From: a virus
Taxonomy: Duplodnaviria; Heunggongvirae; Uroviricota; Caudoviricetes
Direction: 5' to 3' (one strand)
DNA: 15,637 bases
Virus record (IMG/VR): IMGVR_UViG_2600255005_000006
This document shows, piece by piece, positions 1 to 14,145 of this stretch (its first letter is position 1; every line of letters begins with the position of its first letter). The position numbers and the translations under genes are program-made. Below the pieces are notes generated by a model that saw only the letters and a program-made list of their open reading frames with translations, was not told where the DNA came from and made no database searches.

Positions 1-579
1 TTACAACGATTTGGCCGCCGGACCGTGATAACCGCACTCATCGCCGCGATAGGTCCAGGTGCAGGTGTTGGCCAGCATGATACGTCCCGGAAAAACAGCG
101 CCGTCCGTTTCCGTCGACGTGGCCAGTACAAAGGAGGCACTGACCGCGCTCAGTTCGCTGCACTGCTCGATGCGCCAGTGGCTGATCACCTCCTGCTCCG
201 GATCGGCGTCGCTGTTTCCGTTGACGAAGTTCACCGCATCCAGAAAACGGGCGTAAACCTTACGCCTGACCACCGTTCCGCCGACCAGACTCTGCAGGTC
301 TTCCGCCATCCCGGTGACCATGCCGTGCAGGTTAGAAACCGTCAGTGTCGGACGGGCAGCACTGCCCTTGCCGTTCAGTTCAAATCCCGTCCCCTGAATG
401 GGATATGCCTGATACTGCCGCCCCTGCCAGGTAACCGGCTCACCTCTTTCATTCTGCTCATTGCAGAAAAAGTAGCGATCCCCGCCTACCTCTGTCAGGT
501 CGATTTCCCAGAGCACCACGCTGGCCGACTGCTCCGCCCGAATGCATTCATTCAGTGTTTCCTGTTGTATGTCCTGCAT
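1..579 (-). CDS. Minor tail protein L (lambda gpL-like), 192 aa, C-terminally short and divergent
   Basis: Translation MQDIQQETLNECIRAEQSASVVLWEIDLTEVGG... is near-identical to lambda gpL as I recall it, up to ...TWTYRGDECGY, then ends HGPAAKSL with a stop at nt 1-3. ATG at 577-579. Confidence 0.85.
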   Translation of the reverse strand: MQDIQQETLNECIRAEQSASVVLWEIDLTEVGGDRYFFCNEQNERGEPVTWQGRQYQAYPIQGTGFELNGKGSAARPTLTVSNLHGMVTGMAEDLQSLVGGTVVRRKVYARFLDAVNFVNGNSDADPEQEVISHWRIEQCSELSAVSASFVLATSTETDGAVFPGRIMLANTCTWTYRGDECGYHGPAAKSL

Positions 580-583
580 CAGA

Positions 584-916
584 TCACCACTTCGTCAAAC
601 TGACACGAAAAATCGGTATAGGTGATATGTTCTGTCGCTGACCACGTTCGACACACCACTCTGATTTTTCTGTTAATACCCGGCGGGCGCCAAAAAAAGA
701 TTTATAGCCTTCATGCCGGGCTAAAAATTTTTCAAATGAATCACGTTCATTCGCCTCAACTTTGAAATCACAGGTAAAAACGCGCAGAGAATGATTAAGT
801 CCATTTGGACTTCGTTGCTCATAACCATCGCCAAGTCTTACAATTTTTATCGATGGTTTATTTTCTGTTTTCATTCCATCCTCTGGTAACCAGTGAAATT
901 CTTCCGTATTAGCCAC
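584..916 (-). CDS. Minor tail protein M (Phage_min_tail family, distant lambda gpM homolog)
   Basis: 110 aa; motif [16 protein letters not shown]...[14 protein letters not shown] aligns with lambda gpM VRFGDGYSQRAPAGLN...LESFLEEHGGWKSF. GTG start at 914-916 overlaps the tape measure stop; SD GGGGGA 8 nt upstream. Confidence 0.8.
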
Positions 917-3900
917 TTAACATTCCCCCATCACGTCGCATATTTAACAGAGTGCCCTGCACCCGCTGATCAACCATCCCCATAAGTGCTTTTATTGCCT
1001 GAGGGCCAACCTCTCCATTCTGGCCGTCATTTTGAATAGTGATTTGGTATACAGGGGCATAGGTAATATCTCCGCCTCCATTACCACTTTTACTATTAAT
1101 AGCTCTGACACCAAGAGAACCATCGGAAGTTCGTGTTAATGGCATAATGGCTTCCGGTCCAGCCTCACCAAAAACACCCGCCCCTTTTGCAAAAGCAAAA
1201 AATTGCGGGGAATCATAAATACCGTTCGAATACGTGCTCAATGACGGAGACTCATAAACACCGCCCTTTGCATTCGGAATAAATTTACTAATAGCACTCC
1301 CGATAGTTCCTAAAATCCCCCCAGAAGAACTGTTACTAATGCTGTCGAAAATCCCAGTAATTGAAGCCTTTAATGCTATTCGACTAAGATCCGAAATCAC
1401 GGAAGTAGCGAAAGAACGAAAATTTGCCTTGCCTGTCGTGACAAAATCACCCAGCGCATCGGTCATCCCATCAAACATCTGAGTCGTGGTTGATTTTATC
1501 TGCTCACTGATATCCTTAGTGTCATCCAGCCAGTTATTGAATCCCTGGGAGGCACCACTAACCCAGTCTCCTGCCTGAATATCGACCTGCTCGTTTTTCT
1601 GTCTGACAATTTCTTTTTCTCGTTCCAGAGCATCATTCAGAGCCTGCATTTTCTCCTGAAAAACATGATCTGACATTCCACGGGATTTATCTGCATAGTC
1701 ACGTTCAAGTTGCAGACGCTGGTTGTTATATTCACGTTCAATCCGCAGTAATTCCTGCTGACGTTGCTGATTTTTATCGCCAAGCCCATAACCAGCAATC
1801 TGAATATCATACCCCTGCTGACGATTATCAATCGAAGCCTGCAATGAATCACGCCATGCGGCTATTTCGGTTGATTCCTTGATTAGCCTGTTATTTTTTT
1901 CAATCGCAACATTTTTCTCCATCAACGCGGTTATTTCTTCCCGGTGTAAGAGAAGCGATTTCTGATCCTGGGTTAATTTCGATGACGGTCGTGACTCCAG
2001 GTCGGCAATCTGCTGACGCCACTTAACCAGTTCCTGTTCAGAGGAACTTAATTTAACGGTCAATTCAGCTTGTGAACTTAGTAACGCATTCTGTTGATTC
2101 AGATGATCAATCATTCGTTGGGCAGCATCATCCGAATAACCTTTCGCCTTTGGTAGCTTTGGATCTTTATAACGCTCATTTATTTGAGCGACAAGATTAT
2201 TATATTCTTCCTTTGAATACTGACTCTTTAGCTTTTCCAGTTTTGCAAGTTCACTGGCTCTCTGCTGCTCCCGGGTCTGATATTGTTTTGAAAAGGCATC
2301 TGCTTTCTGTCTGAGTTCAATTCCTTCCTGTTGTCGCTTGTTGTAATCGGTTATTGATGAATTTAGTACGTCCTGAGCAATTTTTTCTGCTTGAAGTACG
2401 CCCAATTGCTGCTTTAATCGTGCCAGCCTTTTATTTTGAGCGCCGCCATCCCCAATGCCACCTAACCCGAAAGCTCCGGGTCGGGTATTTTTTTCTATTT
2501 CATCAATTTGATGGAGAACATCTGAGATTTTTTGATCAAGGGAGGCATCACGACCAATATCCAGCATGGAATCCCATGCCCATTTTGCGGACTCAGCGAC
2601 AGCTTTCCATGCAGTCTCAAGATAACCAAGATTTTCTTTAATCTGGTTGGTGCGCTGGATCATTGAGGATGAGTATGCTTCTGTCGCAATGCGGGCGGCC
2701 TCCTGCTGGTTCCCTTCATCCTGTAGCGCCTTAATCTGGTTATAAGTCGCAATTGTCAGAAAATGGTACTGATCATTAAGTTTTGATATGGCACTGACAG
2801 GATCCTTTGCAATTTCATTGAAGTCATTAACCAGTTGTTCGGTTGATATTCCTGTTACTTCGCTCGTTTTTACTATCGCTGTCGTCACTTGCTCCAGCGA
2901 ACTGCTCGCTACCTTTCCCGAACGCACAAGCTGGTTTAATACTGCCGCCGCAGCGCCAGTTGTCGAATCAGCCGCATTCCCGGCACGTTGAGCTATATCG
3001 GCCAATTGCCCGCTGGTTGTCCCCAACTGATTTCCGGTAAGAATAAGAGATTTATTAAATTCGTCCTGCTCCTGAGAGCCTTTATAGTAAGCCAGCCCTA
3101 AGACGCCAACGGCTGCTGCGGCCAGGGTAAAAGGATTAATTAATCCCAGCACATAAGAACCAACACCTTTGATCGCCGGGCCAATCCCACCGAACATATC
3201 TTTTAGCTGGCCGCCCTGCTGCATTAACACCATAAAAGGCGACTGACCAGTGGACAACCCAACAACAATATCCGTCATTTGTGCAGGCAACATGCGCATA
3301 GCAAAAGCCGTTTGTTTTGCCGACATTCCGGTTTTGCTTAATTGAGATTGAGTAACCTCAAGCTCACTCCGCATAGCACGAAGTTTTCCAGAAAGTTCCT
3401 CATACATTTCAGGAGAGAGCATCCCCTTAGCTTTTGCTTCATTGAGCTGTTTCTGTTGTTCTACCAGACGATTAAAAGCAGTTCCGACAGGGTCAAGTTG
3501 AGCAATCAGACGTTGCAAAGCAGCAACCTGTTCATCATGCGCTTTTGCTGCTTCTCGCTCTGCCTGAGCCTCTCCGGTAAGCTCTCGCCGTGTTTCCTGT
3601 ATTTTTCGGCTATAATTCTCAAACTGAGAACCATTTATTTTCCCGGATGCAAACGCAGCATTAAGTTCATCCTGCTGTTGTTCAAGATTTCTTAGCGCCG
3701 CAACCAGAGGGTCGATCTTGTCCAGCATTCTTTGAAAGGCCTGAGCCTGCGATTCCTGCTGGGCGGCAGCAAGTTTTCCGGCCTTCTCGGCTTCTCTCTG
3801 CGCTTGCGCAACCCCGCTCAATTCCTCTGTGGTTTCATTAAGTTTACGGACAAGAAATTCATATTCTTCTTTATCAATAAGCCCTTTATCGAAAAATTTC

Positions 3901-4142
3901 TTTAATTCAGAATAGCGTCGACCGACAGTATCAATTGCGGCACCAACTGGATCAATAGCTGCTTTTAATTTTGCGAGCGCGTTCTTCTCATCTTCTGTTG
4001 CCTTAGTCACTTTCCCTGCGCTATTTGCAGCAGTTTCCCCGGCCTGCGTCATTTTGACTAATGAGGAGGTCAGATTGTCAGCATTATTTTTTGCTCCAGT
4101 GCTATCAATAATTATTGCGAGACGCGAGGTTTGCTCTGCCAT
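909..4142 (-). CDS. Tail tape measure protein (gpH-like), 1077 aa
   Basis: Very long ORF between chaperone and M genes; coiled-coil-rich N-terminal half, hydrophobic glycine-rich central segment, C-terminal region typical of tape measure proteins. ATG at 4140-4142 with SD GGAG 9 nt upstream. Confidence 0.9.
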
Positions 4143-4165
4143 TTATTAAAACTCCAGACAACAAA

Positions 4166-4185
4166 AAGCCCACCGAAGTGGGTTT
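4166..4185 (-). terminator. Terminator-like hairpin (CCCAC-UUCG-GUGGG followed by CUUUUUGUUGU) just upstream of the tape measure start
   Basis: Read on the minus strand in the 128-bp gap between the T-like ORF and the tape measure gene; short GC stem, UUCG tetraloop, U-run. Confidence 0.3.
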
Positions 4186-4270
4186 CAGGCGACATAATAG
4201 TAGATATAGCGATTACGAGGCCACGCAATGCTTTTCTCCAGGAGCATCATCGATTTAATTAAAGACACCA

Positions 4271-4540
4271 TCACATCTCTGTAACAGAGTGTACGTAATT
4301 AACAACTACACACACTGCTCCTGAAAATAACTGGTCATCCAGTGCAAAGATCACTGCTTCAAACTCATCGCGCTCAATCAATACCGGATGAGTGGCTAAA
4401 TATTCATTTATCTCTGTCAGAGATATAGGCAAAGGCACCCCGGTCATTCCAGCATAACGTCGGGCACGGGATATTACCGAATAGGCGTACAACAATTCCT
4501 TAAGCACCGGGTCTATTTCTGGTTCCGGTATCGGTGGCAA
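4271..4540 (-). CDS. gpT-like tail assembly chaperone extension segment; no credible own start, in frame with the G-like ORF behind its TAG stop
   Basis: The ORF-track start is TTG with no SD. The frame stays open from the G stop (4613-4615) to 4271 (113 sense codons). Position between chaperone and tape measure matches the G/GT arrangement. Confidence 0.45.
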   Translation of the reverse strand: MPPIPEPEIDPVLKELLYAYSVISRARRYAGMTGVPLPISLTEINEYLATHPVLIERDEFEAVIFALDDQLFSGAVCVVVNYVHSVTEM

Positions 4541-4612
4541 CCTGAGTTTTTCTCGCTTCCATCTTGCCTTTTCCCCCTTTCTCCCCGAACTCCGATAACC
4601 ACCGCTGGGCGG

Positions 4613-4627
4613 CTATGGCTTTTTTAT
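4613..4627 (-). promoter_or_regulatory. Putative -1 programmed frameshift signal: slippery heptamer A_AAA_AAG (4625-4619) two codons before the TAG stop, followed after 6 nt by a stem-loop (4612-4599)
   Basis: Zero-frame reads AUA AAA AAG CCA UAG; downstream CCGCC-CAGC-GGUGG can form a 5-bp hairpin. The heptamer is the same as the one I recall at the E. coli dnaX frameshift site. Confidence 0.4.
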
Positions 4628-5074
4628 CGTATCCTGCTTCTGCAGCTCTTTACCCTGGGCGATGCTGGCTGCTTCTGCAAGGATCTGCCAGTACAACTCT
4701 GGATTCTGCTTAAGCAGCGCGATCCCTCGTTCTGGCGTATATTCCAGTGCAACCTCAGCACCATTAACCAGTTCACCAACCCCTTTCCAGTCTTTCAGCA
4801 GATAACGAGCAGCATTATCAATGAGTAAATCATCAACAGAATCTACCTCGGAAACCTTTGAAATATCAAACTCCTTCGTTCCGACGTGCAAACTGGCATC
4901 CATTTTCTCAATGTGACGACGGATTAATGCATTACGGGAGCGATACTGATCGTTATCGCTGCTTGCCACCAACAGTTTTAACCCGTCTACAGGTTTTAAG
5001 TCCTTCATTGGCGTAAACCAGCGTTCTCCACCGATGATAATTTTCTGATTAAGAATAAACATCCATAACCTCAT
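4613..5074 (-). CDS. Tail assembly chaperone (gpG-like by position), 153 aa
   Basis: ORF immediately downstream of the major tail gene and upstream of the tape measure gene; ends in a slippery heptamer. ATG 5072-5074 has SD AGGGGG 8 nt upstream; alternative ATG at 5060-5062 has SD GAGG. Confidence 0.7.
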   Translation of the reverse strand: MRLWMFILNQKIIIGGERWFTPMKDLKPVDGLKLLVASSDNDQYRSRNALIRRHIEKMDASLHVGTKEFDISKVSEVDSVDDLLIDNAARYLLKDWKGVGELVNGAEVALEYTPERGIALLKQNPELYWQILAEAASIAQGKELQKQDTIKKP

Positions 5075-5083
5075 TCAATGCGT

Positions 5084-5110
5084 CCCCCTGTAGTGCAGTA
5101 CCACAGGGGG
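5084..5110 (-). promoter_or_regulatory. Strong stem-loop (about 11 bp) between the major tail and G-like genes that sequesters the G-like gene SD
   Basis: Minus-strand RNA CCCCCUGUGG-UACUGCACU-ACAGGGGG; the 3' arm contains the AGGGGG SD for the ATG at 5074; no U-run follows. Confidence 0.35.
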
Positions 5111-5122
5111 AATAACGGAAAA

Positions 5123-6085
5123 TCAACTAATCGCATCAGCACTGGCTTTTGCGATCACGGCAGTCGGGGAGCATTTTTTTCTGGTTATCGTAGGTGCTTC
5201 ATCTGCTGCGGTAATGCTCAATTGAACCTGGATAATGTCAGTATTACCCCCATCAGGCCATTCACCTGACACCTGAACCTTCGGGAAACTGAAAGTGTAT
5301 GCCCCCTCTCCATTCGAAAGCGTGAAGCTGAACGGAACTGTTTCTCCAGTCAGTGTTTTACTCCAGATTTCCCACGCGGCTTTAGACCATGAAAGCGTCA
5401 CCGTACCGGACGGTGTAAAAGTAGTCGGAATATTTGCTCCTGCATAAGGCGAGCCAGTCCCGATACAACGCTGTGTCTGGAGTTTGTTATCGAACTGAAT
5501 ATCAAAACTGTCGATACAAAAACCGTTACCTCCGGCAACACCATTCAGGCTTACTGCTGAAACCTCCTTAAACGAATAGCGTAACTTTCCTGCACTATCC
5601 ACAGGTTCGCCTTTGATAAAATTCGTATCATCGGCCTTTGATTCCCAGCCCAGCCCGGCAAAGGTTACGGTCGCTGTAATATCGCCGTCGTTAGGGATCT
5701 GCATTTTCCATGAGCCAACCTGCGCTCCTCTGACGACAGAGGCAATTCCGACATCGGACGCATAGGTCGCCAGAGAAAATGTTATTCGCTCATTCCCCAT
5801 TGTCAGAGAATCGCCTGACCATTCCGCGCCGAAACAGGATGCAAGAAAATCATCATGTTGACCCCAGCGAAATTTGGTACCAACATCACCGCCGACATCC
5901 ACAGTGCCAGGCGTCGCCCCCTGAGCCATCCGGGAGCCACCAATCTCATTATTTTCGCCTTTATTCTGGGTGGGTTTTACTCCCCAGCTTGTGCGTTTTA
6001 ATAAACTCCAGTCACCACTTGCTGGCGTAGTGCCTGCAACTGTCTCCCGGATAAATGCCGAGATAACCTTTGCACCTGAACTCAC
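5123..6085 (-). CDS. Major tail (tube) protein, 320 aa
   Basis: Position between tail terminator and chaperone genes. GTG start at 6083-6085 with SD AGGAGG 5 nt upstream. Confidence 0.8.
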   Translation of the reverse strand: MSSGAKVISAFIRETVAGTTPASGDWSLLKRTSWGVKPTQNKGENNEIGGSRMAQGATPGTVDVGGDVGTKFRWGQHDDFLASCFGAEWSGDSLTMGNERITFSLATYASDVGIASVVRGAQVGSWKMQIPNDGDITATVTFAGLGWESKADDTNFIKGEPVDSAGKLRYSFKEVSAVSLNGVAGGNGFCIDSFDIQFDNKLQTQRCIGTGSPYAGANIPTTFTPSGTVTLSWSKAAWEIWSKTLTGETVPFSFTLSNGEGAYTFSFPKVQVSGEWPDGGNTDIIQVQLSITAADEAPTITRKKCSPTAVIAKASADAIS

Positions 6086-6111
6086 AGGAGCCTCCTATGT
6101 CATTAATTGCG

Positions 6112-6504
6112 CTAGAGCGCGCGATATGGAATTTGAAGATTAAGCTGGAACCAGCCATTCTTTTCGCCGACGGCTATTGAGGAAACAGCCTGGTAACTGA
6201 GACGATCGTCATCCTGAAACTCAAACAGTTCCCGCAATTTATCGGCTGTCTCAGTAATGAGTTTTGAACCAGAACCTGCGGGGACAAATAACTGAATAAT
6301 GATTATCCCCGTGCGATAAACAACCGGCCCCGCGCCAATTTCATTAACTCCAGCCTGCCCGGGAATATTACTTAACCGCGCCCAGATTAACTTACCGGAA
6401 GGATCGAACGTTGGCGCGTTCGGATACAATACGTCTTTTCCATCAATAATCGTCTGTGCCGTCATTCTGGAAATAACCGTATTTCTGATTTCAGTAAACG
6501 TCAT
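6112..6504 (-). CDS. Tail terminator / tail completion protein (gpU-like by position), 130 aa
   Basis: Small ORF directly upstream of the major tail gene; its ATG overlaps the previous stop (ATGA). Confidence 0.55.
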   Translation of the reverse strand: MTFTEIRNTVISRMTAQTIIDGKDVLYPNAPTFDPSGKLIWARLSNIPGQAGVNEIGAGPVVYRTGIIIIQLFVPAGSGSKLITETADKLRELFEFQDDDRLSYQAVSSIAVGEKNGWFQLNLQIPYRAL

Positions 6505-6881
6505 TTGTAAGCCTGTAAAACACCATGAAAAGCGTTGGCATACACGCCAGTTGGCGCTTGTTGTGAATGACCGTTTTCAAGAGCCTCTGCATAAGGAAGG
6601 TTATTCTGGATATAAATAACTCCGTAATTTGCAGCTTTCGAAATAACCCCGATCCCACGCTGAACAGCAATCGTACCGTTCGGATCCACGTTATCAGATA
6701 TACCAAAATCGGGATGCTGTAACGACACCAGGTTGTTATTTCTGAAACGTCCGGTATCAACCGGAGCAGCAATATCAATAGCAGTAAGAATCTGAATAGC
6801 GATGTAGCGAATCTTCAGCCCTACATCTTCCTCAATCATCCCGGCAAATATTGACGGTTCTATATCCCATGCCTTTGCCAT
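6501..6881 (-). CDS. Neck protein (HK97 gp10-like by position), 126 aa
   Basis: SD AAGGAG 7 nt upstream of the ATG; the previous gene's stop abuts the start. Family assignment is from memory and position, not a search. Confidence 0.55.
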   Translation of the reverse strand: MAKAWDIEPSIFAGMIEEDVGLKIRYIAIQILTAIDIAAPVDTGRFRNNNLVSLQHPDFGISDNVDPNGTIAVQRGIGVISKAANYGVIYIQNNLPYAEALENGHSQQAPTGVYANAFHGVLQAYK

Positions 6882-7265
6882 TTACGCTCTCCTTAACTGG
6901 ATAGAGTAAACTGATGCGGAAGGATCTACACTTGCTGTAATTACCTCGTATCGTTGTAACTGCCTTGATACAGGATCATAAATCTCAATAATATGGTCGA
7001 CAGCTGGTTTATCCGTAACCTCGCATACCAGAGCGGTTAATTTAAGGTCACCATGCAAAATATTAATCCCATCAATTCTGCCCAGCTTATAACGTGTCAA
7101 CACGCCTCGCCCGGTATAGATTTCGGTGGATTCGCCGCCAGTTTCCGTCACAGGATCCCAGTGCCGGTGCGTAACGTAAGAACCAGAAAAATCACTCACG
7201 GCGTCCGCTAAATCCTCATCAAAAGCAGCGGCAACCTCTGACTGAATCTCTTCACGAAGCCCCAT
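6882..7265 (-). CDS. Head-tail joining / head closure protein (by position), 127 aa
   Basis: ATG overlaps the preceding TAA (TAATG); G-rich SD. Function inferred from synteny only. Confidence 0.5.
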   Translation of the reverse strand: MGLREEIQSEVAAAFDEDLADAVSDFSGSYVTHRHWDPVTETGGESTEIYTGRGVLTRYKLGRIDGINILHGDLKLTALVCEVTDKPAVDHIIEIYDPVSRQLQRYEVITASVDPSASVYSIQLRRA

Positions 7266-7660
7266 TATCCCCCCCTCACAACCCTGACTTGTGAGCGACT
7301 AAGTCCGTACGGTTTCAGCAGTGCTATCGCAAGCTGTAAATCGGGTTCAAGCAATGCAGTGCTGTTTGCTGGCAACTCAGAAAATGATTTCGATACACTG
7401 ACCCCGTCAGCCGACACGGCTTTACTGATAACAACGCCAGAATCATTTTTCTGCTGAAACAACTTACCGAATGAGGCAATTCTGGCTGCATATGCTCCCG
7501 CAAGTTTTACCTCTTCCGGAATACGGGATGGGTTAATTTTCAGGTTGAAGCCATTAAGCCAGGCATTAGCCATTAAAACAGCTTTATTTTTAGCGTTCTC
7601 ACTCGTCCAGGCGTTCCCAAACGCATTATCAACGTCATCACAGGTCACGTAAGTGATCAT
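7265..7660 (-). CDS. Head-tail connector / head completion protein (by position), 131 aa
   Basis: ATG at 7658-7660 with SD AGGAG 8 nt upstream. Function inferred from synteny only. Confidence 0.5.
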   Translation of the reverse strand: MITYVTCDDVDNAFGNAWTSENAKNKAVLMANAWLNGFNLKINPSRIPEEVKLAGAYAARIASFGKLFQQKNDSGVVISKAVSADGVSVSKSFSELPANSTALLEPDLQLAIALLKPYGLSRSQVRVVRGG

Positions 7661-7663
7661 GTG

Positions 7664-7840
7664 TTACTCCTGAGTTTTCCAGCCCATAGCCTTCCAGTTG
7701 TCAACTTCATCAGGATGAACATTAGCGATAGTTGGTGCGCCGGGAAACATCTGATAATCGGTCACCATAACCACTAACTCAATTTGCGTTTTTTGTGCGG
7801 CTTCACGCTGTGCTCTTTGCTCTTTAGTTAATCCGGCCAT
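7664..7840 (-). CDS. Small hypothetical phage protein, 58 aa (absent from the ORF track)
   Basis: Hand translation MAGLTKEQRAQREAAQKTQIELVVMVTDYQMFPGAPTIANVHPDEVDNWKAMGWKTQE; ATG at 7838-7840 preceded by a G6 SD; its TAA overlaps the SD of the next gene; fills the capsid-connector gap. Confidence 0.4.
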   Translation of the reverse strand: MAGLTKEQRAQREAAQKTQIELVVMVTDYQMFPGAPTIANVHPDEVDNWKAMGWKTQE

Positions 7841-7857
7841 ATGCCCCCCATTAAAAA

Positions 7858-7876
7858 TGGGGCCGAAGCCCCGTTT
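7858..7876 (-). terminator. Intrinsic terminator-like hairpin 10 nt after the major capsid stop (GGGGC-UUCG-GCCCC followed by AUUUUUAAU)
   Basis: Read on the minus strand; likely a partial terminator raising capsid relative to downstream expression. Confidence 0.4.
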
Positions 7877-7882
7877 GAATGT

Positions 7883-9022
7883 TTAACCAAGAATCAGACA
7901 ACCATGTGCCGGCTTCACTGATGAAACACCCCATGCCAGTCCAACTTCATAGCGCACCTGGCGATACTGACGATACAGTGCAATCTGGAACGTAATCCCT
8001 GAAATCGGGTCCGTAACATTCATTACATCATCAGCATTATCGCCACCTTCCGGCATTGCCGGAGTACGGGATGCCAGCAGAAACGCGTTGCGATCAAACG
8101 CCATATTTGCAGTAAAGGAGCCAACAACTGTGATTGCAGTATCATCGGCCAGATCCTGACGCAGTCCGGGCGCTGCAAGAGTAATCAGATTGCTGGTCGC
8201 TGCTGCCACAACATACTGATTCGGATCGCCAGCGAACGTAACAATCTGACCTGCAGAAATACTCCCCGAACCAGTATCAATGGAAATAAGAACATCGCCT
8301 TCTTTTTTCTCGCCATTCACGAGATAACCAGTTGCAGCAACCTTTGGCGCTCGTTTTACACCTGCCGAACTGTGAATATTGAATCCCTCCAGACGCCCCA
8401 ACACGCCCTCACGCAGTAGCTGTTCAGTGCCGGATTCATTCACTTTAAACAGTACAGACTGTTTTCCGCGCAAATTAGCAATGGCAGTGGAGCCAAGCAC
8501 CATCTGCAGATCGGTTGTCGGTGCGCCGTTATCCTCCAGAACCTGACGAGCCAGAGCAGCATCAGAAAGATCATCTTTAACACCAAACGGCGTTGTCCCT
8601 GCGGTTCCCACGGCGCGGGAAGCACCGAAATACAACGCACCAAGATCAGCCTCAACCTCGTTTGCAAGGGCGCGAAAAGCCTGCTTGAACTGATCAGCCA
8701 GAATGGTGTTGTAAGTCCCTGAAGGGCCAAGAGCCAGTTGTTCTTCACCATTCCATTTAACCGGTGCCATTTTGGATTTAGTAATTTTCACATCAACAGT
8801 GCCAATATTTTGATCACCGGTATTCGGAGCTGACGGCCCCGGTACGATATCTTCGGTTTTCGCCTCAGGCGCAACTGGCGCGGTTACCGTCTGATCTTTT
8901 GCTGCGGCGTCAGCTTTTGCGTTTTTTGCTACCGCAGGGATAAAACCTACCTGCTCACGGGATACAATATCCAGGGCGGTATAAATAGTCGGGATCAACC
9001 CGGTCAGGGTATTTCCAGCCAT
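7883..9022 (-). CDS. Major capsid (coat) protein, 379 aa
   Basis: Large ORF downstream of the scaffold-like gene and upstream of the neck genes; ATG at 9020-9022 with SD AAGGA; followed by a terminator hairpin. Confidence 0.85.
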   Translation of the reverse strand: MAGNTLTGLIPTIYTALDIVSREQVGFIPAVAKNAKADAAAKDQTVTAPVAPEAKTEDIVPGPSAPNTGDQNIGTVDVKITKSKMAPVKWNGEEQLALGPSGTYNTILADQFKQAFRALANEVEADLGALYFGASRAVGTAGTTPFGVKDDLSDAALARQVLEDNGAPTTDLQMVLGSTAIANLRGKQSVLFKVNESGTEQLLREGVLGRLEGFNIHSSAGVKRAPKVAATGYLVNGEKKEGDVLISIDTGSGSISAGQIVTFAGDPNQYVVAAATSNLITLAAPGLRQDLADDTAITVVGSFTANMAFDRNAFLLASRTPAMPEGGDNADDVMNVTDPISGITFQIALYRQYRQVRYEVGLAWGVSSVKPAHGCLILG

Positions 9023-9121
9023 AATTAAATATTCCTTAAAAATTTGCGTAATTAGTGAATAGATGGAGTAATGAGCTATCCAGCCCTGACACCAGCTCCC
9101 ATCCGGAAGCTGACAAATGTG

Positions 9122-9886
9122 TTAATCAACAATTGTGATACCGTCTTTCAATGCGTTTTGCTTACCTGCAACATCCAGTGCATCAAAAGCAGAGCGTTTC
9201 ATCGTTTTCTGACCAACATCATGCTGTGTCGGACGGGAGCCGCCGCCATTGTTGCCACTGGCTTTCAGGATGTAGTCTTTCTGAGGGTAATTTTCGACGA
9301 GGAACTCCAGCACCTCATCAAACTGCGCCAGTTCGCCAGGCTTCGCGCGGGAATAAATTTTGTTGCCGGAAGCGTCATAAGCAACGATCTTCCCTTCTTC
9401 CACTTTGAATGCCTGCCCGAAGCGGGCTTGTAATAAATCTGCCGGGATCGCAATTTTATCGGCAATATATTTTGAACCCGCAAAACTACCGCCAATCATA
9501 GAATCGTAAAGCTGCGTCTCCAGCATCTGAGAGCGTTGCTTTTCTTCATCTAATTGCTGCTGAAAATTTTTCGTAATTTCTGCCTTAACCTGGTCAACCT
9601 GTCCCGCATCGATCAGCTTTTTCTGGTCGATTTTTGACAGCATTTCCAGTGCCTCGATCGCCTTCTTCGGGTCTTCGATAGCGGCAAACTTAGCCAGTTT
9701 TTCCTCTGCAGCTTCTTTAGCCAGGCGATGATTTTTTGCCTCGCCATTAAGCTCTGTAATTTTTTTTATCGCCAGCGGTGCATCGAAGCCGATTTCTTTA
9801 CCATCGTCGTGCACATAAACTGGCAGGCCAGCAGTATCAATTTCTGCGTATTGTTTTCCGTTAATCTCGACCGTTTTCAGTTTCAT
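9122..9886 (-). CDS. Putative capsid scaffolding protein, 254 aa (start MKLKTVEINGK)
   Basis: Acidic, helix-rich ORF between the MuF-like and capsid genes. The ORF-track GTG extension to 9958 is rejected because it runs through the upstream terminator hairpin. Confidence 0.5.
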   Translation of the reverse strand: MKLKTVEINGKQYAEIDTAGLPVYVHDDGKEIGFDAPLAIKKITELNGEAKNHRLAKEAAEEKLAKFAAIEDPKKAIEALEMLSKIDQKKLIDAGQVDQVKAEITKNFQQQLDEEKQRSQMLETQLYDSMIGGSFAGSKYIADKIAIPADLLQARFGQAFKVEEGKIVAYDASGNKIYSRAKPGELAQFDEVLEFLVENYPQKDYILKASGNNGGGSRPTQHDVGQKTMKRSAFDALDVAGKQNALKDGITIVD

Positions 9887-9940
9887 ATTAGTACCTGGTT
9901 TAAGTCTTCCGACAGTTACGCTGCTCACCATCCGGATCGC

Positions 9941-9970
9941 AGCAATAAAAAAGGCCACCCGAAGGTAGCC
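9941..9970 (-). terminator. Intrinsic terminator between the MuF-like and scaffold genes (GGCUACC-UUCG-GGUGGCC followed by UUUUUUAUU)
   Basis: 7-bp GC-rich stem with one mismatch, UUCG tetraloop, U6 run, read on the minus strand. Confidence 0.5.
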
Positions 9971-9990
9971 TGTTGTAATAAATGATTTAT

Positions 9991-11017
9991 TTAAATCCCT
10001 GCTTTTCTGAATACCTGTGCATCACGCTCACGGAGTTGCTTCAGCGTCAGCCATTCGCCTTTATCGGTGTAAAATTCATCTGGCGACATACCGCCATCCC
10101 GAATCAGCTTTGCCCGGGTTTCCCCCACAATCTGTTTTTGTCTGGTGTAAGGCTGACGCAAAAACCATTCCCTGTAGGTTGTATCTCCGGCCACCACGCC
10201 ATCCATGCTGGCCCGCTCAGCCGGGGAAATATCACGAACATCAATACCCAGTTCCTTCGCTGATTTCAGAATGAACGTTTCCGTTGAGCGGCAGCAGAAA
10301 TGAATTTTTCCCGGCCCATGCAAATAAGGCACACTGTGACCTACAGGTTTATTATCCAGCGTATATTTGAGGCGATCCCTGATTCGACATTGTGGCGTAG
10401 TACGATTATCAAGCGTTGATAACCATTGCTTACCCTTAATCAAATCATTATTCGCGCTGGCAAAACTCTCACGGGCAGTAGCAGCAAGATGTCCAACCGC
10501 TGTTTTTGCAATGCTGGCCGCATTAGCCCGGCTCATCTGCAATGCACCATCCTGAAATCCCTTGCTGACATGTCCCCGAATTTTTCTTGCGATCTGCTCA
10601 TTGGTATCCCCCAGCAAAAAACCCTGACGCACCGTATTTGTTATGCGTCTGAGCCGATCCGCCTCAAGATCCAAGGCCCACTCACTGAGCAGTCGTCCCT
10701 GGAATGGTCGCGCCATTGCAGCGGCGTAAAGTGCATCAAGAAGATATACCAACCAGAGGGTGAACATCAGCAACAAAATCAGGTAGCAGAGAATCAAACA
10801 GACTTAACTGATAACCAGCCTCATAAATTGCCAGCTCGTTCAGCTCTCCGGAGAGACTGGTAAACATGCTGTTAATAGCAGCGCGGTTAACCTCTCTGAC
10901 ACTCGCCAGAAGTGACTCCAGGCGCGTAACGGTAAAACTACCAGGATCGAGGCTGTCCAGTGCTACCAGCAGGCGAGCTGTAAGCTCCGCATCGCTGTCA
11001 TTCAGTATTTTCACCAT
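9991..11017 (-). pseudogene. Head morphogenesis protein, Phage_Mu_F / SPP1 gp7 family, split by a +1 frameshift into an N-terminal ORF (10736..11017, 93 aa) and a C-terminal ORF (9991..10797)
   Basis: The C-terminal part carries a MuF-like motif WLSTLDNRTTPQCRIRDRLKYTL...HFCCRS. The N-terminal ORF has ATG at 11015-11017 with SD GAGG. The frames overlap over 10736-10797; the in-frame ATG at 10714-10716 has no SD. Combined length about 335 aa fits the family. Confidence 0.65.
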
Positions 11018-12885
11018 TCTGGCAGCCTCGCCAGTTGCCTGAAGCGGTATGTGGTTTCCGTCGTCCTGGCCGTGCTGACCAGCCGCTCACTGCCGTCATC
11101 CGCTGCCACGGTCAGGCGAAGCATAAAGCTCCCCCCCTTCACCACCTTCGGCGTGTCCCAGCGCGCCAGCACCTGGTATTCCCCGCTGTCTGCGGTGACT
11201 TCTGCAGTCAGGTGCTGCACCGCGGGCGGCGTGACACCGTTCACCGTTCCGCTCTGGTCGCCGTCAAAGTACGCCCCGTTATCCACGATGGCTTCTTTCT
11301 CCGGTACATGCTGCACGGCAGTGATGGCATACGTGCCGTCATCGTTCTCACGGATACTCACACAGCGGAACAGGCGCTGGCGCAGCATCGGCAGCTTCAG
11401 CCCCCACACGCTGTATCCGGCAACGCCGTCAGGAACACGGCTCACTTTCACCTTCACACCGTCGGTGACGGACTGGACCTCCACGCTGACCGGATTCCCC
11501 TGCCCGTCAACCAGGCTTATCAGCGTGGTGCCGGAGGATGGCAGCGTGATTTCACGGTCGAGCGTCAGCGTCCGGGTCTGGCTGTTCACCGCCAGCACAC
11601 GCCCACCGATGCTGATACCGGCATAGTCATCATCGCAGATTTCAATGACATCCCCCGGTACATGGCGAAGCCCTTCAGCACCCACGCTGAAGTCCACGGT
11701 CTGCGTTTCCAGCAGCTCCGTTTTAATCAGCCACAGCCCGGCGCGGTGTGCCTGCCCCCGACTGGTACAGCCAAAGGCATCCATCTTCGTGACGTTACGG
11801 CCGTAACGGGCAATGGCCTGCGTATCCTCCACGAGCTCTGTCGCCGTCTCCCAGCCGTTGTTCGGGTCAATCCAGTTCACCTCAACGGCATTATGGCGGT
11901 CCTTCAGGGCGCTGAAGCTGTAGCGGAACGGCGCGCCATCATCCGGCATCACCACATTACTGCGGTTATAGGTCCACACCTTATCTGATGGTCGGTCCTG
12001 CACGAACGTCAGCGTCTGCCCGTTCCATACCGGCATACAGCGCATCGCCGAGCAGAAATCACTGAGCACATCCCACGCCTTGCGCTGTGTGGTCAGGTAC
12101 GCATTACAGGTGATGCGCGGCTCCGTGCCGCCAAAGCCGTCCGGCACTGACTGGTCGCAGTACTGGCCGATGACATACAGCGCCCATTTATCCACATCCG
12201 CCGCACCAAGACGTTTCCCCATGCCGTAGCGCGGATGGGTCAGCATATCCCACAGACACCAGGCCATGTTGTTGCTGTATGCCGGTTTAAACGTTCCGTC
12301 CCAGATACCGCTGTATTGCCGCGTCTGCGGGTTATAATTCGACGGCACCTGCAGAATACGCCCGCGCAGATGATAATTACGGCTCACCTGCTGACTGCCG
12401 AACTGCTCCGAGTCCACCTGCACGCCGACCAGTGCCGTGTTCGGGTAGCACTGTTTCACATCGATAATTTCGGTGTATGACGACCAGAGCGTTTTGTTCT
12501 GCAGCTGGTCTGTGGTGCTGTCCGGCGTCATCCTGCGCATCCGGATACTGAACGGGCGCGGCGGCAGGTTATCCACCACCACCGAGGCCAGATACTGTGA
12601 AGTGGTTTTACCCTTAATGGTGATGTCTTTTTCCGTCACCCAGCCACCGTTACGTTGTATCTGAACCAGCAGGCGGACTTCCGATGGATTCCTGTCCCCC
12701 TTTGAGGTGGTTTCCACCAGTGCCTGCACGCCGAAAGTAAAACGCAGACGGTCAATGTTTGCCGACGTGATGGTCCGGGTGATCGGCGTGTCATATTTCA
12801 CTTCTGTACCGAGCACCGTCTCGGAGCCGGAGGATTCAAATCCCTCCGGCGGTGTCTGCTCCTGCTCACCGGCCCGGAACACCAC
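11011..12885 (-). pseudogene. Internal fragment of lambda-like host specificity protein J (roughly lambda residues 55-690); lacks its N-terminus and C-terminal receptor-binding region
   Basis: Translation VVFRAGEQEQTPPEGFESSGSETVLGTEVKYDTPITRT... is near-identical to lambda gpJ as I recall it. Homology runs upstream to about 12927 (SEGNTNISGVT) and ends at about 11025 (RFRQLA, then RLPEW-stop versus lambda LGNYRL). Confidence 0.9.
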
Positions 12886-12929
12886 CGTGACGCCGGATAT
12901 ATTGGTATTCCCCTCACTGCCCGATAGGG

Positions 12930-13340
12930 TTGGCGGGTGGGCTAAACTTATACCAATACGCGCCGAATCCGCTGGGGTGGATTGACCCGTTAGGACTTAA
13001 ATGCTGGAGTTCGGCCAGACGTGATTACTGGAAAGCAGAAGCTAAAGCAGCGCCAAAAGGCATGTATTCATCCGTGAATATGTTAAGAATGCGTTTTGGT
13101 CTTGCTCCAAGAATTCGAGTTAAAGAATTCCATTTTAAAACAGGTACAGAAAGAATAAGAAACGTATCGCTAGAACTAAACCATCGTCATTGGCCTCAAC
13201 GCGATGGTAAGCATGTTGATATTCCATATAACCTTGAGAAAGTGACGCCCTGGGAACATGCAGCTAAAGATCCCTATAGACATCCAGGTAGTACGTTACT
13301 TGAAATACTACAAGACATTGGAAACTATAAGGGGTTTTAA
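12930..13340 (+). CDS. Orphan Rhs C-terminal toxin tip: Rhs core-end motif (PIGLAGGLNLYQYAPNPLGWIDPLGL) followed by an HNH/colicin-DNase-like domain of about 110 aa; no bona fide start codon
   Basis: Rhs PxxxxDPxGL boundary motif at 12921-12998. Downstream ELNHRHWPQRDGKHVDIPYNLEKVTPWEH resembles the colicin E9 HNH motif [28 protein letters not shown]. In-frame stop at 12888-12890; AT-rich codon usage. Confidence 0.65.
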   Translation: MAGGLNLYQYAPNPLGWIDPLGLKCWSSARRDYWKAEAKAAPKGMYSSVNMLRMRFGLAPRIRVKEFHFKTGTERIRNVSLELNHRHWPQRDGKHVDIPYNLEKVTPWEHAAKDPYRHPGSTLLEILQDIGNYKGF

Positions 13341-13341
13341 A

Positions 13342-13722
13342 ATGAGACTGGCTGAATTTATGCAATCTGATATTTATGTTGATTTTCTTAATGACTTGGA
13401 TAAGTCTCTTTCAGAAAAGATAGATAGAAAATCAAAGGTTTATGATGTTGTTGTTAACCTTATGGAAAAATGGTTGGAATATGCCTCGATGTCTTTTGAT
13501 GATTTGCATTGGGTTATATCAAATTGCAGGTCAGATTCAATAAGTTACATTGTAAAAAAACAAGTTACTTATACAGAGGCTAATGGTGGGAAAGATAATA
13601 TCATCAATCAAGCGCCTAAGATAAACTTCCCTATTGGTCATCTGATAGAGTATTATTTATTATCGAAAAGACCGAACGATTTGCTTGATTATGTGAACAA
13701 AAATTCGGATTCCCGGTTCTAA
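13342..13722 (+). CDS. Putative cognate immunity protein, 126 aa
   Basis: ATG 1 nt after the toxin TAA with SD AAGGGG 7 nt upstream; very AT-rich; followed by a terminator. Function inferred from the toxin-immunity gene arrangement; no recognisable family. Confidence 0.55.
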   Translation: MRLAEFMQSDIYVDFLNDLDKSLSEKIDRKSKVYDVVVNLMEKWLEYASMSFDDLHWVISNCRSDSISYIVKKQVTYTEANGGKDNIINQAPKINFPIGHLIEYYLLSKRPNDLLDYVNKNSDSRF

Positions 13723-13818: not shown

Positions 13819-14145
13819 TTAATTATCTTTCAGCACTTCCCACATCCCGCTTTTTATTCCCTTCACCACCCGTTTAACCTGATAAAGTTCCTCCCGCAGT
13901 TCCTGTACCTCGTCACTGTCAGCGATGATGGTCAGGCACCCCTCCGAAATCTTCACCGTCACACCCCGCCCGGTATCAAATCCGGCTTCTTTCAGCCAGT
14001 CGCCCTTGAGGTGCAGGCTGGGGTGTTGTGAATAATACCGGGCTATACCGGTTGTGCGGTCCTGGTGGCGGGCTCTGACATAGCCGACTTTATAGCGGCG
14101 CTGTGTTTTGGAAATGACGTCCGCATTACTGTCGTTCTGCGGCAT
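13819..14145 (-). CDS. SymE-family (type I toxin-antitoxin, AbrB-fold) toxin homolog, 108 aa
   Basis: LHLKGDWLKEAGFDTGRGVTVKISEGCLTIIA aligns with E. coli SymE [32 protein letters not shown] as I recall it. ATG at 14143-14145 chosen; the ORF-track extension to 14325 is antisense to the PTS gene and rejected. Confidence 0.7.
   Translation of the reverse strand: MPQNDSNADVISKTQRRYKVGYVRARHQDRTTGIARYYSQHPSLHLKGDWLKEAGFDTGRGVTVKISEGCLTIIADSDEVQELREELYQVKRVVKGIKSGMWEVLKDN

What the first reader, a model, noticed from the sequence alone, without database searches (positions are those of the whole stretch)
4271..4627. Anomalous G/T tail-chaperone recoding region: a canonical frameshift signal leads to a short -1 extension, while the long downstream ORF lies in the zero frame behind a TAG
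The G-like ORF ends ...AUA AAA AAG CCA UAG, with a perfect A_AAA_AAG heptamer and a stem-loop 6 nt downstream. The -1 frame runs only 39 codons to a TAA at 4500-4502. The 113 sense-codon T-like ORF is in frame with G behind the amber codon and has no credible start or SD. Either T is inactivated by a 1-nt indel, the GT product is unusually short, or the extension is made by amber readthrough, which would be atypical for a G/T-type tail chaperone pair, where a -1 frameshift is the expected mechanism.
Basis: partly seen in the sequence, partly recalled or inferred. Interest (0 to 1): 0.6.

Follow-up and report, generated by a model that had tools for sequence, protein, structure and literature searches.

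The report
Tail-chaperone frameshift cassette broken by indels
This is an ordinary phage tail-chaperone gene pair that normally uses a programmed -1 ribosomal frameshift; it looks anomalous here only because this one genome record carries three single-base insertions or deletions that about 99% of related copies (over a thousand examined) lack, most likely sequencing or assembly errors.

Summary
On the minus strand the G-like ORF (5062/5074..4613) ends ATA AAA AAG CCA TAG. The -1 frame stops after 39 codons (TAA 4502-4500). A 113-codon T-like ORF lies in the zero frame behind the TAG.

The anomaly is not a recoding novelty. The window comes from AEMF01000001 (Escherichia sp. TW11588, E. ruysiae), a draft single-record chromosome.

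- The E. ruysiae representative genome is identical over 3,754 nt, with 0 substitutions. It differs by exactly three 1-nt indels: G5->G4 (4586-4583), G6->G5 (4577-4573), and an extra T (4329/4330).
- With those bases restored, -1 slippage at A_AAA_AAG gives a 256-aa G-T fusion that matches PHROG 313 (tail assembly chaperone) end to end.
- About 99% of 1,068 E. coli genomes, 77 of 80 IMG/VR loci and four Citrobacter genomes have T in the -1 frame.
- The linker after the heptamer evolves as -1-frame coding sequence.

Over 11 kb the window has six 1-nt indels but only 1-3 substitutions against its nearest relatives. Natural relatives show at most 2 indels per 100-170 substitutions.

Most likely these are base-calling or assembly errors (about 0.75). 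Real pseudogenisation is the alternative (about 0.2). Amber readthrough is very unlikely. Interest is low.

The parts
5123..6085 (-). Tail tube protein gene (320 aa), immediately upstream of the chaperone pair
   Evidence: Pfam Phage_tube_2, E 1.5e-31; annotated as phage tail tube protein in relatives
4613..5074 (-). G-like tail assembly chaperone ORF (YdaY family). The longest ORF starts at 5074; the likely start is the ATG at 5062 (149 aa). Stop TAG at 4615-4613.
   Evidence: PHROG 313 'tail assembly chaperone', E 8e-46; PF27119 Phage_YdaY on the called gene; start inferred from relatives with a stop after the first ATG
4619..4625 (-). Slippery heptamer A_AAA_AAG in the phase for -1 tandem slippage
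   Evidence: Sequence. Present in the same phase in 80 of 80 IMG/VR loci and 8 of 8 genome loci
4592..4618 (-). Hairpin downstream of the heptamer; the core CCGCC/GGUGG stem starts 6 nt after it
   Evidence: dG -14.2 kcal/mol, z -3.7 for the 29-nt segment. Identical in close relatives but not recovered in the 77-80% identity clade, so a stimulatory role is unproven
4583..4586 (-). G4 run; G5 in nearly all relatives (1-nt deletion in this record)
   Evidence: Alignments; census
4573..4577 (-). G5 run; G6 in nearly all relatives (1-nt deletion in this record)
   Evidence: Alignments; census
4500..4502 (-). TAA that ends the -1 frame after 39 codons in this record; out of frame in relatives
4271..4612 (-). 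T-like domain coding sequence. In this record it lies in the zero frame behind the TAG; in relatives it lies in the -1 frame and ends at the TAG equivalent to 4308-4306.
   Evidence: PHROG 1189 E 3.9e-36; Pfam Phage_TAC_18 below threshold. The canonical 256-aa fusion covers positions 13-246 of the 258-position PHROG 313 profile
4329..4330 (-). Extra T (CAG-TAT -> CAGTTAT) that shifts the last codons of T. Found in 0 of 1,046 E. coli genomes that match this 91-nt stretch.
4169..4182 (-). Terminator-like hairpin plus T run between T and the tape measure gene
909..4142 (-). Tape measure protein gene (1077 aa), immediately downstream
   Evidence: Pfam TMP_2 E 1e-81, Tape_meas_lam_C, TMP_4

Best explanation
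The locus is a standard G/GT-type tail assembly chaperone cassette of a Rac-like lambdoid prophage, the ydaY family. It sits between the tail tube gene and the tape measure gene.

In the functional form, most ribosomes terminate at the TAG and make G (149 aa). A minority slip -1 on A_AAA_AAG and continue for 104 codons, making a 256-aa G-T fusion. This mechanism is inferred from conservation and by analogy with lambda G/GT; it was not assayed here.

In this record (AEMF01000001, Escherichia sp. TW11588) three single-base indels destroy that arrangement. One G is lost from each of two neighbouring G runs, which moves T into the zero frame. One extra T scrambles the C-terminus of T. These indels are most likely base-calling or assembly errors in an early draft genome whose contigs appear to have been concatenated into one record. 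No unusual recoding such as amber readthrough or a short GT product is implied.
For: 1. The E. ruysiae representative genome is identical to window 2809-6562 (0 mismatches in 3,754 nt) apart from exactly these three indels. Its -1 product is the full T extension.
2. E. coli Yu5 and a metagenome scaffold differ from window 15-11035 by 3 mismatches (two of them beside the 11030 junction) but six 1-nt indels. Eight further relatives with 90-167 substitutions differ by the same six indels, while natural indels among them number at most 2.
3. All three insertions are +A on the plus strand. The three deletions are in homopolymers.
4. Census of 1,068 E. coli genomes: 7 have non-canonical G runs. G4 occurs only together with G5, on three different SNP backgrounds. 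This correlation is expected from assembly-specific homopolymer under-calling, not from independent mutations. The extra T is in 0 of 1,046 genomes.
5. 77 of 80 IMG/VR loci and 8 of 8 genome loci (Escherichia, Shigella, four Citrobacter species) give a 100-114-codon -1 extension containing T.
6. Between clades the 96-nt linker after the heptamer has 36 differences, distributed 8/7/21 over -1-frame codon positions, with only 6 of 32 residues changed. The -1 frame is therefore translated from the slip site.
7. The canonical fusion matches PHROG 313 over its whole length (E 1.6e-50).
8. The record is a 4.46-Mb single WGS entry. Junctions in and around the window occur in none of 5,426 complete E. 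coli genomes, and the flanks come from distant K-12 map regions. This suggests contigs were concatenated.
Against: - About 13 kb of flanking chromosomal genes (add, malY, cpdB, ytfE-H, cycA, fklB) have called lengths that are normal, judged against K-12 lengths I recall. A uniform indel error rate of about 0.5 per kb does not fit that. The errors would have to be concentrated in the prophage contig.
- Three of the five private indels fall within 253 nt.
- The prophage copy may be a truncated remnant, where real frameshifts would be tolerated.
- One of the six indels (A7 at 698, in the gpM-like gene) is a genuine allele seen in hundreds of independent assemblies.
- I could not verify the sequencing platform of this assembly, and no reads were available.
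Confidence: 0.75

Rival explanations
1. The three indels are real mutations. The Rac-like prophage in TW11588 is a decaying remnant and its T reading frame has been pseudogenised. G may still be made, but no functional G-T fusion is.
For: The prophage copy in the record is truncated on both sides: gpL is 192 instead of 232 aa, the Mu-F-like head gene is cut at about 11030, and terminase and portal genes are absent. Other phage genes carry frameshifts (698, 10739) while the flanking chromosomal genes do not. G runs are natural slippage hot spots. The A7 frameshift allele of the gpM-like gene is real and widespread.
Against: There are no substitutions in 3,754 nt against a conspecific genome but three indels. 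Over 11 kb there are 1-3 substitutions against 5-6 indels, whereas natural relatives show at least 50 substitutions per indel. The three insertions are all +A at non-repeat or 1->2 positions, which is atypical for replication slippage. The truncations themselves may be artefacts of contig concatenation.
Confidence: 0.2
2. The zero-frame arrangement is functional. G-T is made by readthrough of the amber codon (natural leakiness or a suppressor tRNA) instead of by frameshifting.
For: T is open in the zero frame for 113 codons directly behind the TAG. The same G4/G5 allele occurs in two E. coli assemblies.
Against: Only 3 of about 1,150 loci have it, on three unrelated haplotypes, and G4 is always coupled to G5. 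The zero-frame linker (PPSGGYRSSGRKGEKA) replaces a linker that is conserved as protein in the -1 frame across genera. The extra T also destroys the conserved C-terminus. No suppressor tRNA lies next to the locus; I inspected the ORFs but did not run a tRNA scan. One time in three, two random 1-nt deletions would land T in the zero frame by chance.
Confidence: 0.02
3. The 39-codon -1 extension is itself the functional GT product, a short T.
For: The heptamer and hairpin are intact, so slippage would produce a 187-191-aa protein.
Against: From residue 13 on, the extension is out-of-frame sequence with no family match (protein 3: 0 families). It lacks the T domain, which every intact relative carries in the -1 frame.
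Confidence: 0.01

Closest known systems
Bacteriophage lambda G / GT tail assembly chaperones (programmed -1 frameshift; Levin, Hendrix and Casjens 1993; Xu, Hendrix and Duda 2004 - cited from my own knowledge)
   Same: The position between the tail tube gene and the tape measure gene. A short upstream ORF with a slippery heptamer a few codons before its stop. A roughly 100-codon extension in the -1 frame with no start of its own. In relatives the fusion is 256 aa against 149 aa for G alone.
   Different: The slippery sequence is A_AAA_AAG rather than lambda's G_GGA_AAG. The T part does not match Pfam Phage_tail_T (the lambda T family); it matches PHROG 1189 and weakly Phage_TAC_18. In this record the -1 continuity is broken by indels.
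ydaY of the E. coli K-12 Rac prophage and its relatives (Pfam PF27119 Phage_YdaY; PHROG 313)
   Same: Direct homology. G is 77-99% identical to ydaY-family genes in about 1,070 of 5,426 complete E. coli genomes and in Citrobacter and Shigella. The gene order is the same (trkG ... head genes ... tube-ydaY-T-TMP).
   Different: The public annotation (PGAP) lists 'protein YdaY' plus a separate 66-aa hypothetical protein and does not annotate the frameshift. K-12-type remnants lack the first 33 codons of G.
dnaX gamma/tau and IS3-family (e.g. IS911) -1 frameshift sites using A_AAA_AAG (from my own knowledge)
   Same: The identical heptamer and a downstream hairpin at a 6-nt spacing.
   Different: There is no Rfam match to any curated frameshift element. 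The hairpin is not conserved in the more distant clade. In dnaX the shift leads to early termination; here it leads to an extension.

Membership tests
G/GT-type tail assembly chaperone pair with programmed -1 frameshift | Located between the major tail (tube) gene and the tape measure gene | tested here: met
   Tube gene 6085..5123, G 5062..4613, T 4612..4271, TMP 4142..909
G/GT-type tail assembly chaperone pair with programmed -1 frameshift | X_XXY_YYZ slippery heptamer in the correct phase near the 3' end of the upstream ORF | tested here: met
   A_AAA_AAG at 4625-4619, one codon before the TAG. Conserved in phase in 88 of 88 related loci
G/GT-type tail assembly chaperone pair with programmed -1 frameshift | Downstream T ORF open in the -1 frame from the slip site, giving a roughly 100-residue extension | tested here: not met
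   In the window the -1 frame stops after 39 codons and T is in the zero frame. The feature is met in relatives: 77 of 80 IMG/VR loci, 8 of 8 genome loci, about 99% of 1,068 E. coli genomes, and the conspecific genome identical but for 3 indels. So the window is a disrupted or mis-sequenced copy of a member.
G/GT-type tail assembly chaperone pair with programmed -1 frameshift | Sequence homology of both parts to tail assembly chaperone families | tested here: met
   G: PHROG 313, E 8e-46. Canonical fusion: PHROG 313 over profile positions 13-246 of 258, E 1.6e-50. T: PHROG 1189, E 3.9e-36, and PHROG 3817 'tail chaperonin', E 1e-3
G/GT-type tail assembly chaperone pair with programmed -1 frameshift | Frameshift product actually made, at a low fixed ratio to G | not testable with these tools
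   Only indirect evidence: the linker evolves as -1-frame coding sequence from the slip site (8/7/21 differences by codon position)
Pfam Phage_tail_T (lambda T, PF06223) | Match to the family HMM above the gathering score | tested here: not met
   No hit at E <= 1 for either the window's T or the canonical T. The only hit is PF23812 Phage_TAC_18 at 19-22 bits, below its cut-off of 27
Programmed stop-codon (amber) readthrough extension | Zero-frame continuity behind the stop conserved among relatives, with the extension conserved as protein in that frame | tested here: not met
   The zero-frame arrangement occurs in only 3 of about 1,150 loci, on unrelated haplotypes. The linker is conserved in the -1 frame, not the zero frame

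The most novel reading that the evidence does not exclude
The G4/G5 allele is real and recurrent: contraction of two adjacent G runs acts as a switch. It moves the T domain into the zero frame, so that G-T is made only by leaky or suppressor-dependent amber readthrough. That would make a tail-chaperone pair convertible between frameshift-dependent and readthrough-dependent expression.
Probability: 0.02. Interest if true: 0.55.

Novelty: already known. Interest (0 to 1): 0.08.

Why it matters
It matters mainly as a caution. A textbook G/GT -1 frameshift cassette can look like exotic recoding when a draft assembly drops bases in homopolymers, so apparent zero-frame 'readthrough' arrangements should be checked against close relatives first.

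There is a minor practical point. The -1 frameshift of the ydaY-family chaperone pair, present in about a fifth of complete E. coli genomes, is not annotated in RefSeq records. They list YdaY plus a 66-aa hypothetical protein, so the G-T fusion is systematically missing from protein sets.

Tried and rejected
- **Pfam on the window's G and T.** G gave nothing and T gave only a sub-threshold Phage_TAC_18 hit. PHROGs was far more informative.
- **Rfam scan of 4150-4800 at E <= 1.** No hit, so the site is not a curated frameshift element.
- **Exact look-ups of possible gene calls for the window's T ORF** (58, 78 and 91 aa variants). None is on record. The 91-aa variant I submitted had a wrong N-terminus, but the source assembly has no gene call in that interval anyway.
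- **Sequencing platform of TW11588.** The Luo et al. 2011 paper is not held and other papers naming the strain say nothing on the method. The platform stays unverified.
- **Literature on ydaY frameshifting.** Nothing relevant was found.
- **The hairpin as a conserved stimulator.** It is present and locally stable, but it is not recovered in the 77-80% identity clade, so I do not claim a role for it.
- **A second compensating frameshift site in the G-rich tract, or phase variation at the G runs.** Rejected, because non-canonical run lengths are about 0.7% of genomes and G4 is always coupled with G5.
- **Structure prediction and deep protein searches.** Not run, because the question was settled by nucleotide comparison.

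Full report
**1. Observation**

All relevant genes are on the minus strand.

- The G-like ORF runs 5074..4613. It ends ATA(4627-4625) AAA AAG(4621-4619) CCA TAG(4615-4613), so A_AAA_AAG (4625-4619) is in the phase required for -1 tandem slippage.
- After a -1 slip the frame runs 39 codons to TAA at 4502-4500.
- The zero frame behind the TAG stays open for 113 codons (4612..4274, stop at 4273-4271) and contains the T-like domain.
- A hairpin follows the heptamer. Its core stem begins 6 nt downstream, and the extended stem spans 4618..4592 with dG -14.2 kcal/mol. The z-score is -3.7 for the 29-nt segment but not significant in a 59-nt context.

One refinement: the true start of G is probably the ATG at 5062 (149 aa), because seven relatives have a TAG three codons after the first ATG.

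**2. Context**

Upstream lies a Phage_tube_2 tail tube gene (6085..5123). Downstream lies a 1077-aa tape measure gene (4142..909). This is the classical position of a G/T tail assembly chaperone pair.

- G matches PHROG 313 'tail assembly chaperone' (E 8e-46) and Pfam Phage_YdaY.
- The T part matches PHROG 1189 (E 3.9e-36) and, below threshold, Pfam Phage_TAC_18. It does not match Pfam Phage_tail_T.
- The element is a Rac-like lambdoid prophage (trkG, ynaK, terminase, P22-type capsid, lambda-like tail). It is present in about 1,070 of 5,426 complete E. coli genomes.

**3. What relatives show**

Alignment with phages vB_EcoS-606R9 and SPF_0923 and with E. coli chromosomes shows three 1-nt differences in the window:

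- it lacks one G in each of two neighbouring G runs (GGGGG->GGGG at 4586-4583; GGGGGG->GGGGG at 4577-4573);
- it has one extra T (CAG-TAT -> CAGTTAT, 4329/4330).

With the canonical run lengths the T domain is in the -1 frame. Slippage at A_AAA_AAG then gives a 256-aa fusion (...QDTIKK-AIAAQRWLSEFGGERGEKARWKREKLRLPPIPEPE...DDQYFQEQCV). That fusion aligns to PHROG 313 over positions 13-246 of its 258-position profile (E 1.6e-50).

Conservation of the arrangement:

- All 80 IMG/VR loci with a G homologue (77-99% identity) have the heptamer in phase, and 77 give a 100-114-codon -1 extension containing T. Of the other three, two diverge or are rearranged downstream, and one (L054) has a G6->G5 contraction plus another 1-nt deletion.
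- In one-genome-per-species data, all 8 loci have the canonical arrangement: E. ruysiae, Shigella flexneri, two E. coli and four Citrobacter species.
- Between the Escherichia-type and Citrobacter-type clades, the 96 nt directly after the heptamer differ at 36 positions. These are distributed 8/7/21 over codon positions of the -1 frame, with only 6 of 32 residues changed. The -1 frame is thus protein-coding from the slip site on, which is what frameshift expression predicts and independent initiation of T does not.

**4. How private the window's arrangement is**

- In a 101-nt census, 1,068 E. coli genomes carry the stretch, and about 99% (about 1,060) have G5/G6.
- Seven are non-canonical. 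Two have G4/G5 like the window (strains 98210 and Z1323CEC0013), each on a different SNP background. Five have G5/G5.
- G4 never occurs without G5.
- The extra T occurs in 0 of 1,046 genomes.

**5. Source, and the error-versus-decay question**

Exact look-ups of two window-specific proteins place the window in NCBI GCA_000208585.2, AEMF01000001.1, a single 4,463,584-bp WGS record. A strain table identifies that accession as Escherichia sp. TW11588, cryptic clade IV or E. ruysiae, from soil (PMC12446263; PMC3466228).

*Evidence that the indels are not ordinary evolutionary change:*

- The E. ruysiae representative genome (NZ_CABVLQ010000001) is identical to window 2809-6562, with 0 mismatches in 3,754 nt, apart from exactly the three indels.
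- Over window 15-11035, E. coli Yu5 and a metagenome scaffold differ by only 3 mismatches, two of them next to a junction, but by six 1-nt indels: 698, 4330, 4577, 4582, 9054 and 10739.
- Eight further relatives that differ by 90-167 substitutions carry the same six differences. Among themselves they show at most two natural indels.
- The window therefore has an indel-to-substitution ratio roughly two orders of magnitude above the natural one.
- The three insertions are all +A on the plus strand. The three deletions are in homopolymers.
- The record also has junctions found in no complete E. coli genome: a Mu-F-like head gene joined to an internal gpJ fragment at about 11030; gpJ joined to an Rhs tip at about 12920; a 5'-truncated malX next to symE; and gpL truncated at about 15. 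Its flanks correspond to distant K-12 regions, cpdB-ytfB on one side and malX-rsxA on the other. This looks like concatenated draft contigs.
- The coupling of G4 with G5 within the same assemblies, on three haplotypes, is what assembly-specific homopolymer under-calling produces. Independent mutations at frequencies of about 0.2-0.7% would almost never coincide.

*Evidence against a pure artefact:*

- About 13 kb of flanking chromosomal genes have normal called lengths, judged against K-12 lengths I recall, so the error would have to be concentrated in the prophage contig.
- One of the six indels, A7 at 698 in the gpM-like gene, is a genuine allele seen in hundreds of independent assemblies.
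- I could not verify the sequencing platform.

I put base-calling or assembly error at about 0.75 and real pseudogenisation of a decaying prophage at about 0.2.

**6. Mechanism**

*Shown:*

- the gene order;
- the heptamer and its phase;
- the frame relations in the window and in more than 1,100 relatives;
- homology of G, T and the fusion to tail assembly chaperone families;
- -1-frame coding constraint from the slip site.

*Inferred:*

- ribosomes shift -1 on A_AAA_AAG at a low rate to make G-T, by analogy with lambda G/GT and with dnaX and IS911, which use the same heptamer (my own knowledge);
- G-T and G chaperone the tape measure protein.

The hairpin's stimulatory role is not shown. It is locally stable but not conserved in the distant clade, and there is no Rfam match.

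**7. Rejected readings**

- *Amber readthrough.* The zero-frame arrangement is rare, scattered over unrelated haplotypes, and replaces a conserved -1-frame linker. In the window it also comes with a scrambled T C-terminus.
- *A short 39-codon GT.* The extension is out-of-frame sequence with no family match.

**8. Novelty and score**

The cassette is a known kind, a G/GT -1 frameshift pair, in a known family (ydaY, PHROG 313). The anomaly is an artefact or a trivial lesion of one record. Interest is low (0.08).

The only mildly useful by-products are these:

- RefSeq annotation omits this frameshift in about a fifth of complete E. coli genomes.
- The purine-rich GGGGGAGAAAGGGGGG tract is a recurrent site of run-length discrepancies in public assemblies.

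Noticed in passing
window 584-916 (minus), indel at 698: The gpM-like minor tail gene has an A7 (T7 on the coding strand) run where Yu5 and ten other relatives have A8. The shift replaces the lambda-M-like C-terminus (..[16 protein letters not shown]..) with ..[14 protein letters not shown].. . The same frameshifted protein is on record in hundreds of independent contigs (e.g. P0005 in 363), so this is a real, widespread allele or a hypermutable tract, not only an error.
   Followed up: partly
window 9991-11017 (minus), indel at 10739: The Mu-F-like minor head protein gene is split into two ORFs (93 aa and 268 aa) by a +A insertion absent from all relatives examined. Its 5' part is missing beyond about 11030.
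   Followed up: partly
window ~15, ~11030, ~12920, ~14100: There are four abrupt junctions. gpL is truncated (192 vs 232 aa). The head gene is joined to an internal fragment of a gpJ tail-tip gene (11030-12918; up to 98.8% identical over its length to J of other prophages). That fragment is joined to an Rhs-type C-terminal tip. A 5'-truncated malX-like PTS EIICB gene abuts a symE-like gene. No complete E. coli genome has these joins, and the flanks map to K-12 regions about 95 min and about 36 min. This is probably contig concatenation in the draft record.
   Followed up: partly
window 12930-13722 (plus) and 13819-14325 (minus): An orphan Rhs C-terminal toxin tip (contains the ..PLGWIDPLGL.. 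core-end motif; weak Tox-HNH-HHH hit) is followed by a small putative immunity ORF. Next to them lies a SymE_toxin-family gene (Pfam hit on the 108-aa called gene; the longest ORF is 168 aa).
   Followed up: no
window 4169-4182 (minus): A terminator-like hairpin (CCCAC-TTCG-GTGGG plus a T run) lies between the T stop and the tape measure start. Relatives carry a natural 2-nt length polymorphism in its loop (TTCG vs TTCGCG). A terminator inside a late tail operon is a little unexpected.
   Followed up: no
relatives: L003-L008, L094 (RefSeq E. coli chromosomes): PGAP annotates the pair as 'protein YdaY' (119 aa, probably starting too far downstream) plus a separate 66-aa hypothetical protein beginning at a GTG inside T. 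The -1 frameshift fusion is not annotated in any record inspected.
   Followed up: partly
L004, L005, L006, L091-L093, L054: Run-length discrepancies in the tract GGGGGAGAAAGGGGGG recur in other public assemblies. G4/G5 is in strains 98210 and Z1323CEC0013. G5/G5 is in E686, 405, Nord1, Nord58 and F5. IMG/VR locus L054 has G6->G5 plus another deletion. In Nord1 the neighbouring tube and tape measure genes are also flagged frameshifted or with an internal stop.
   Followed up: partly
L101, L102 (E. coli ECDA1023, ECGI0523): These loci lack the first 33 codons of G (the match starts at residue 34) yet keep the heptamer and an intact -1-frame T extension. I suspect they are K-12-type Rac remnants, which was not checked.
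   Followed up: no
window 9312: The single true substitution against the nearest relatives (A vs G) lies in the DUF6651 head gene. It makes that protein unique to this record in the 15-billion-protein collection.
   Followed up: partly
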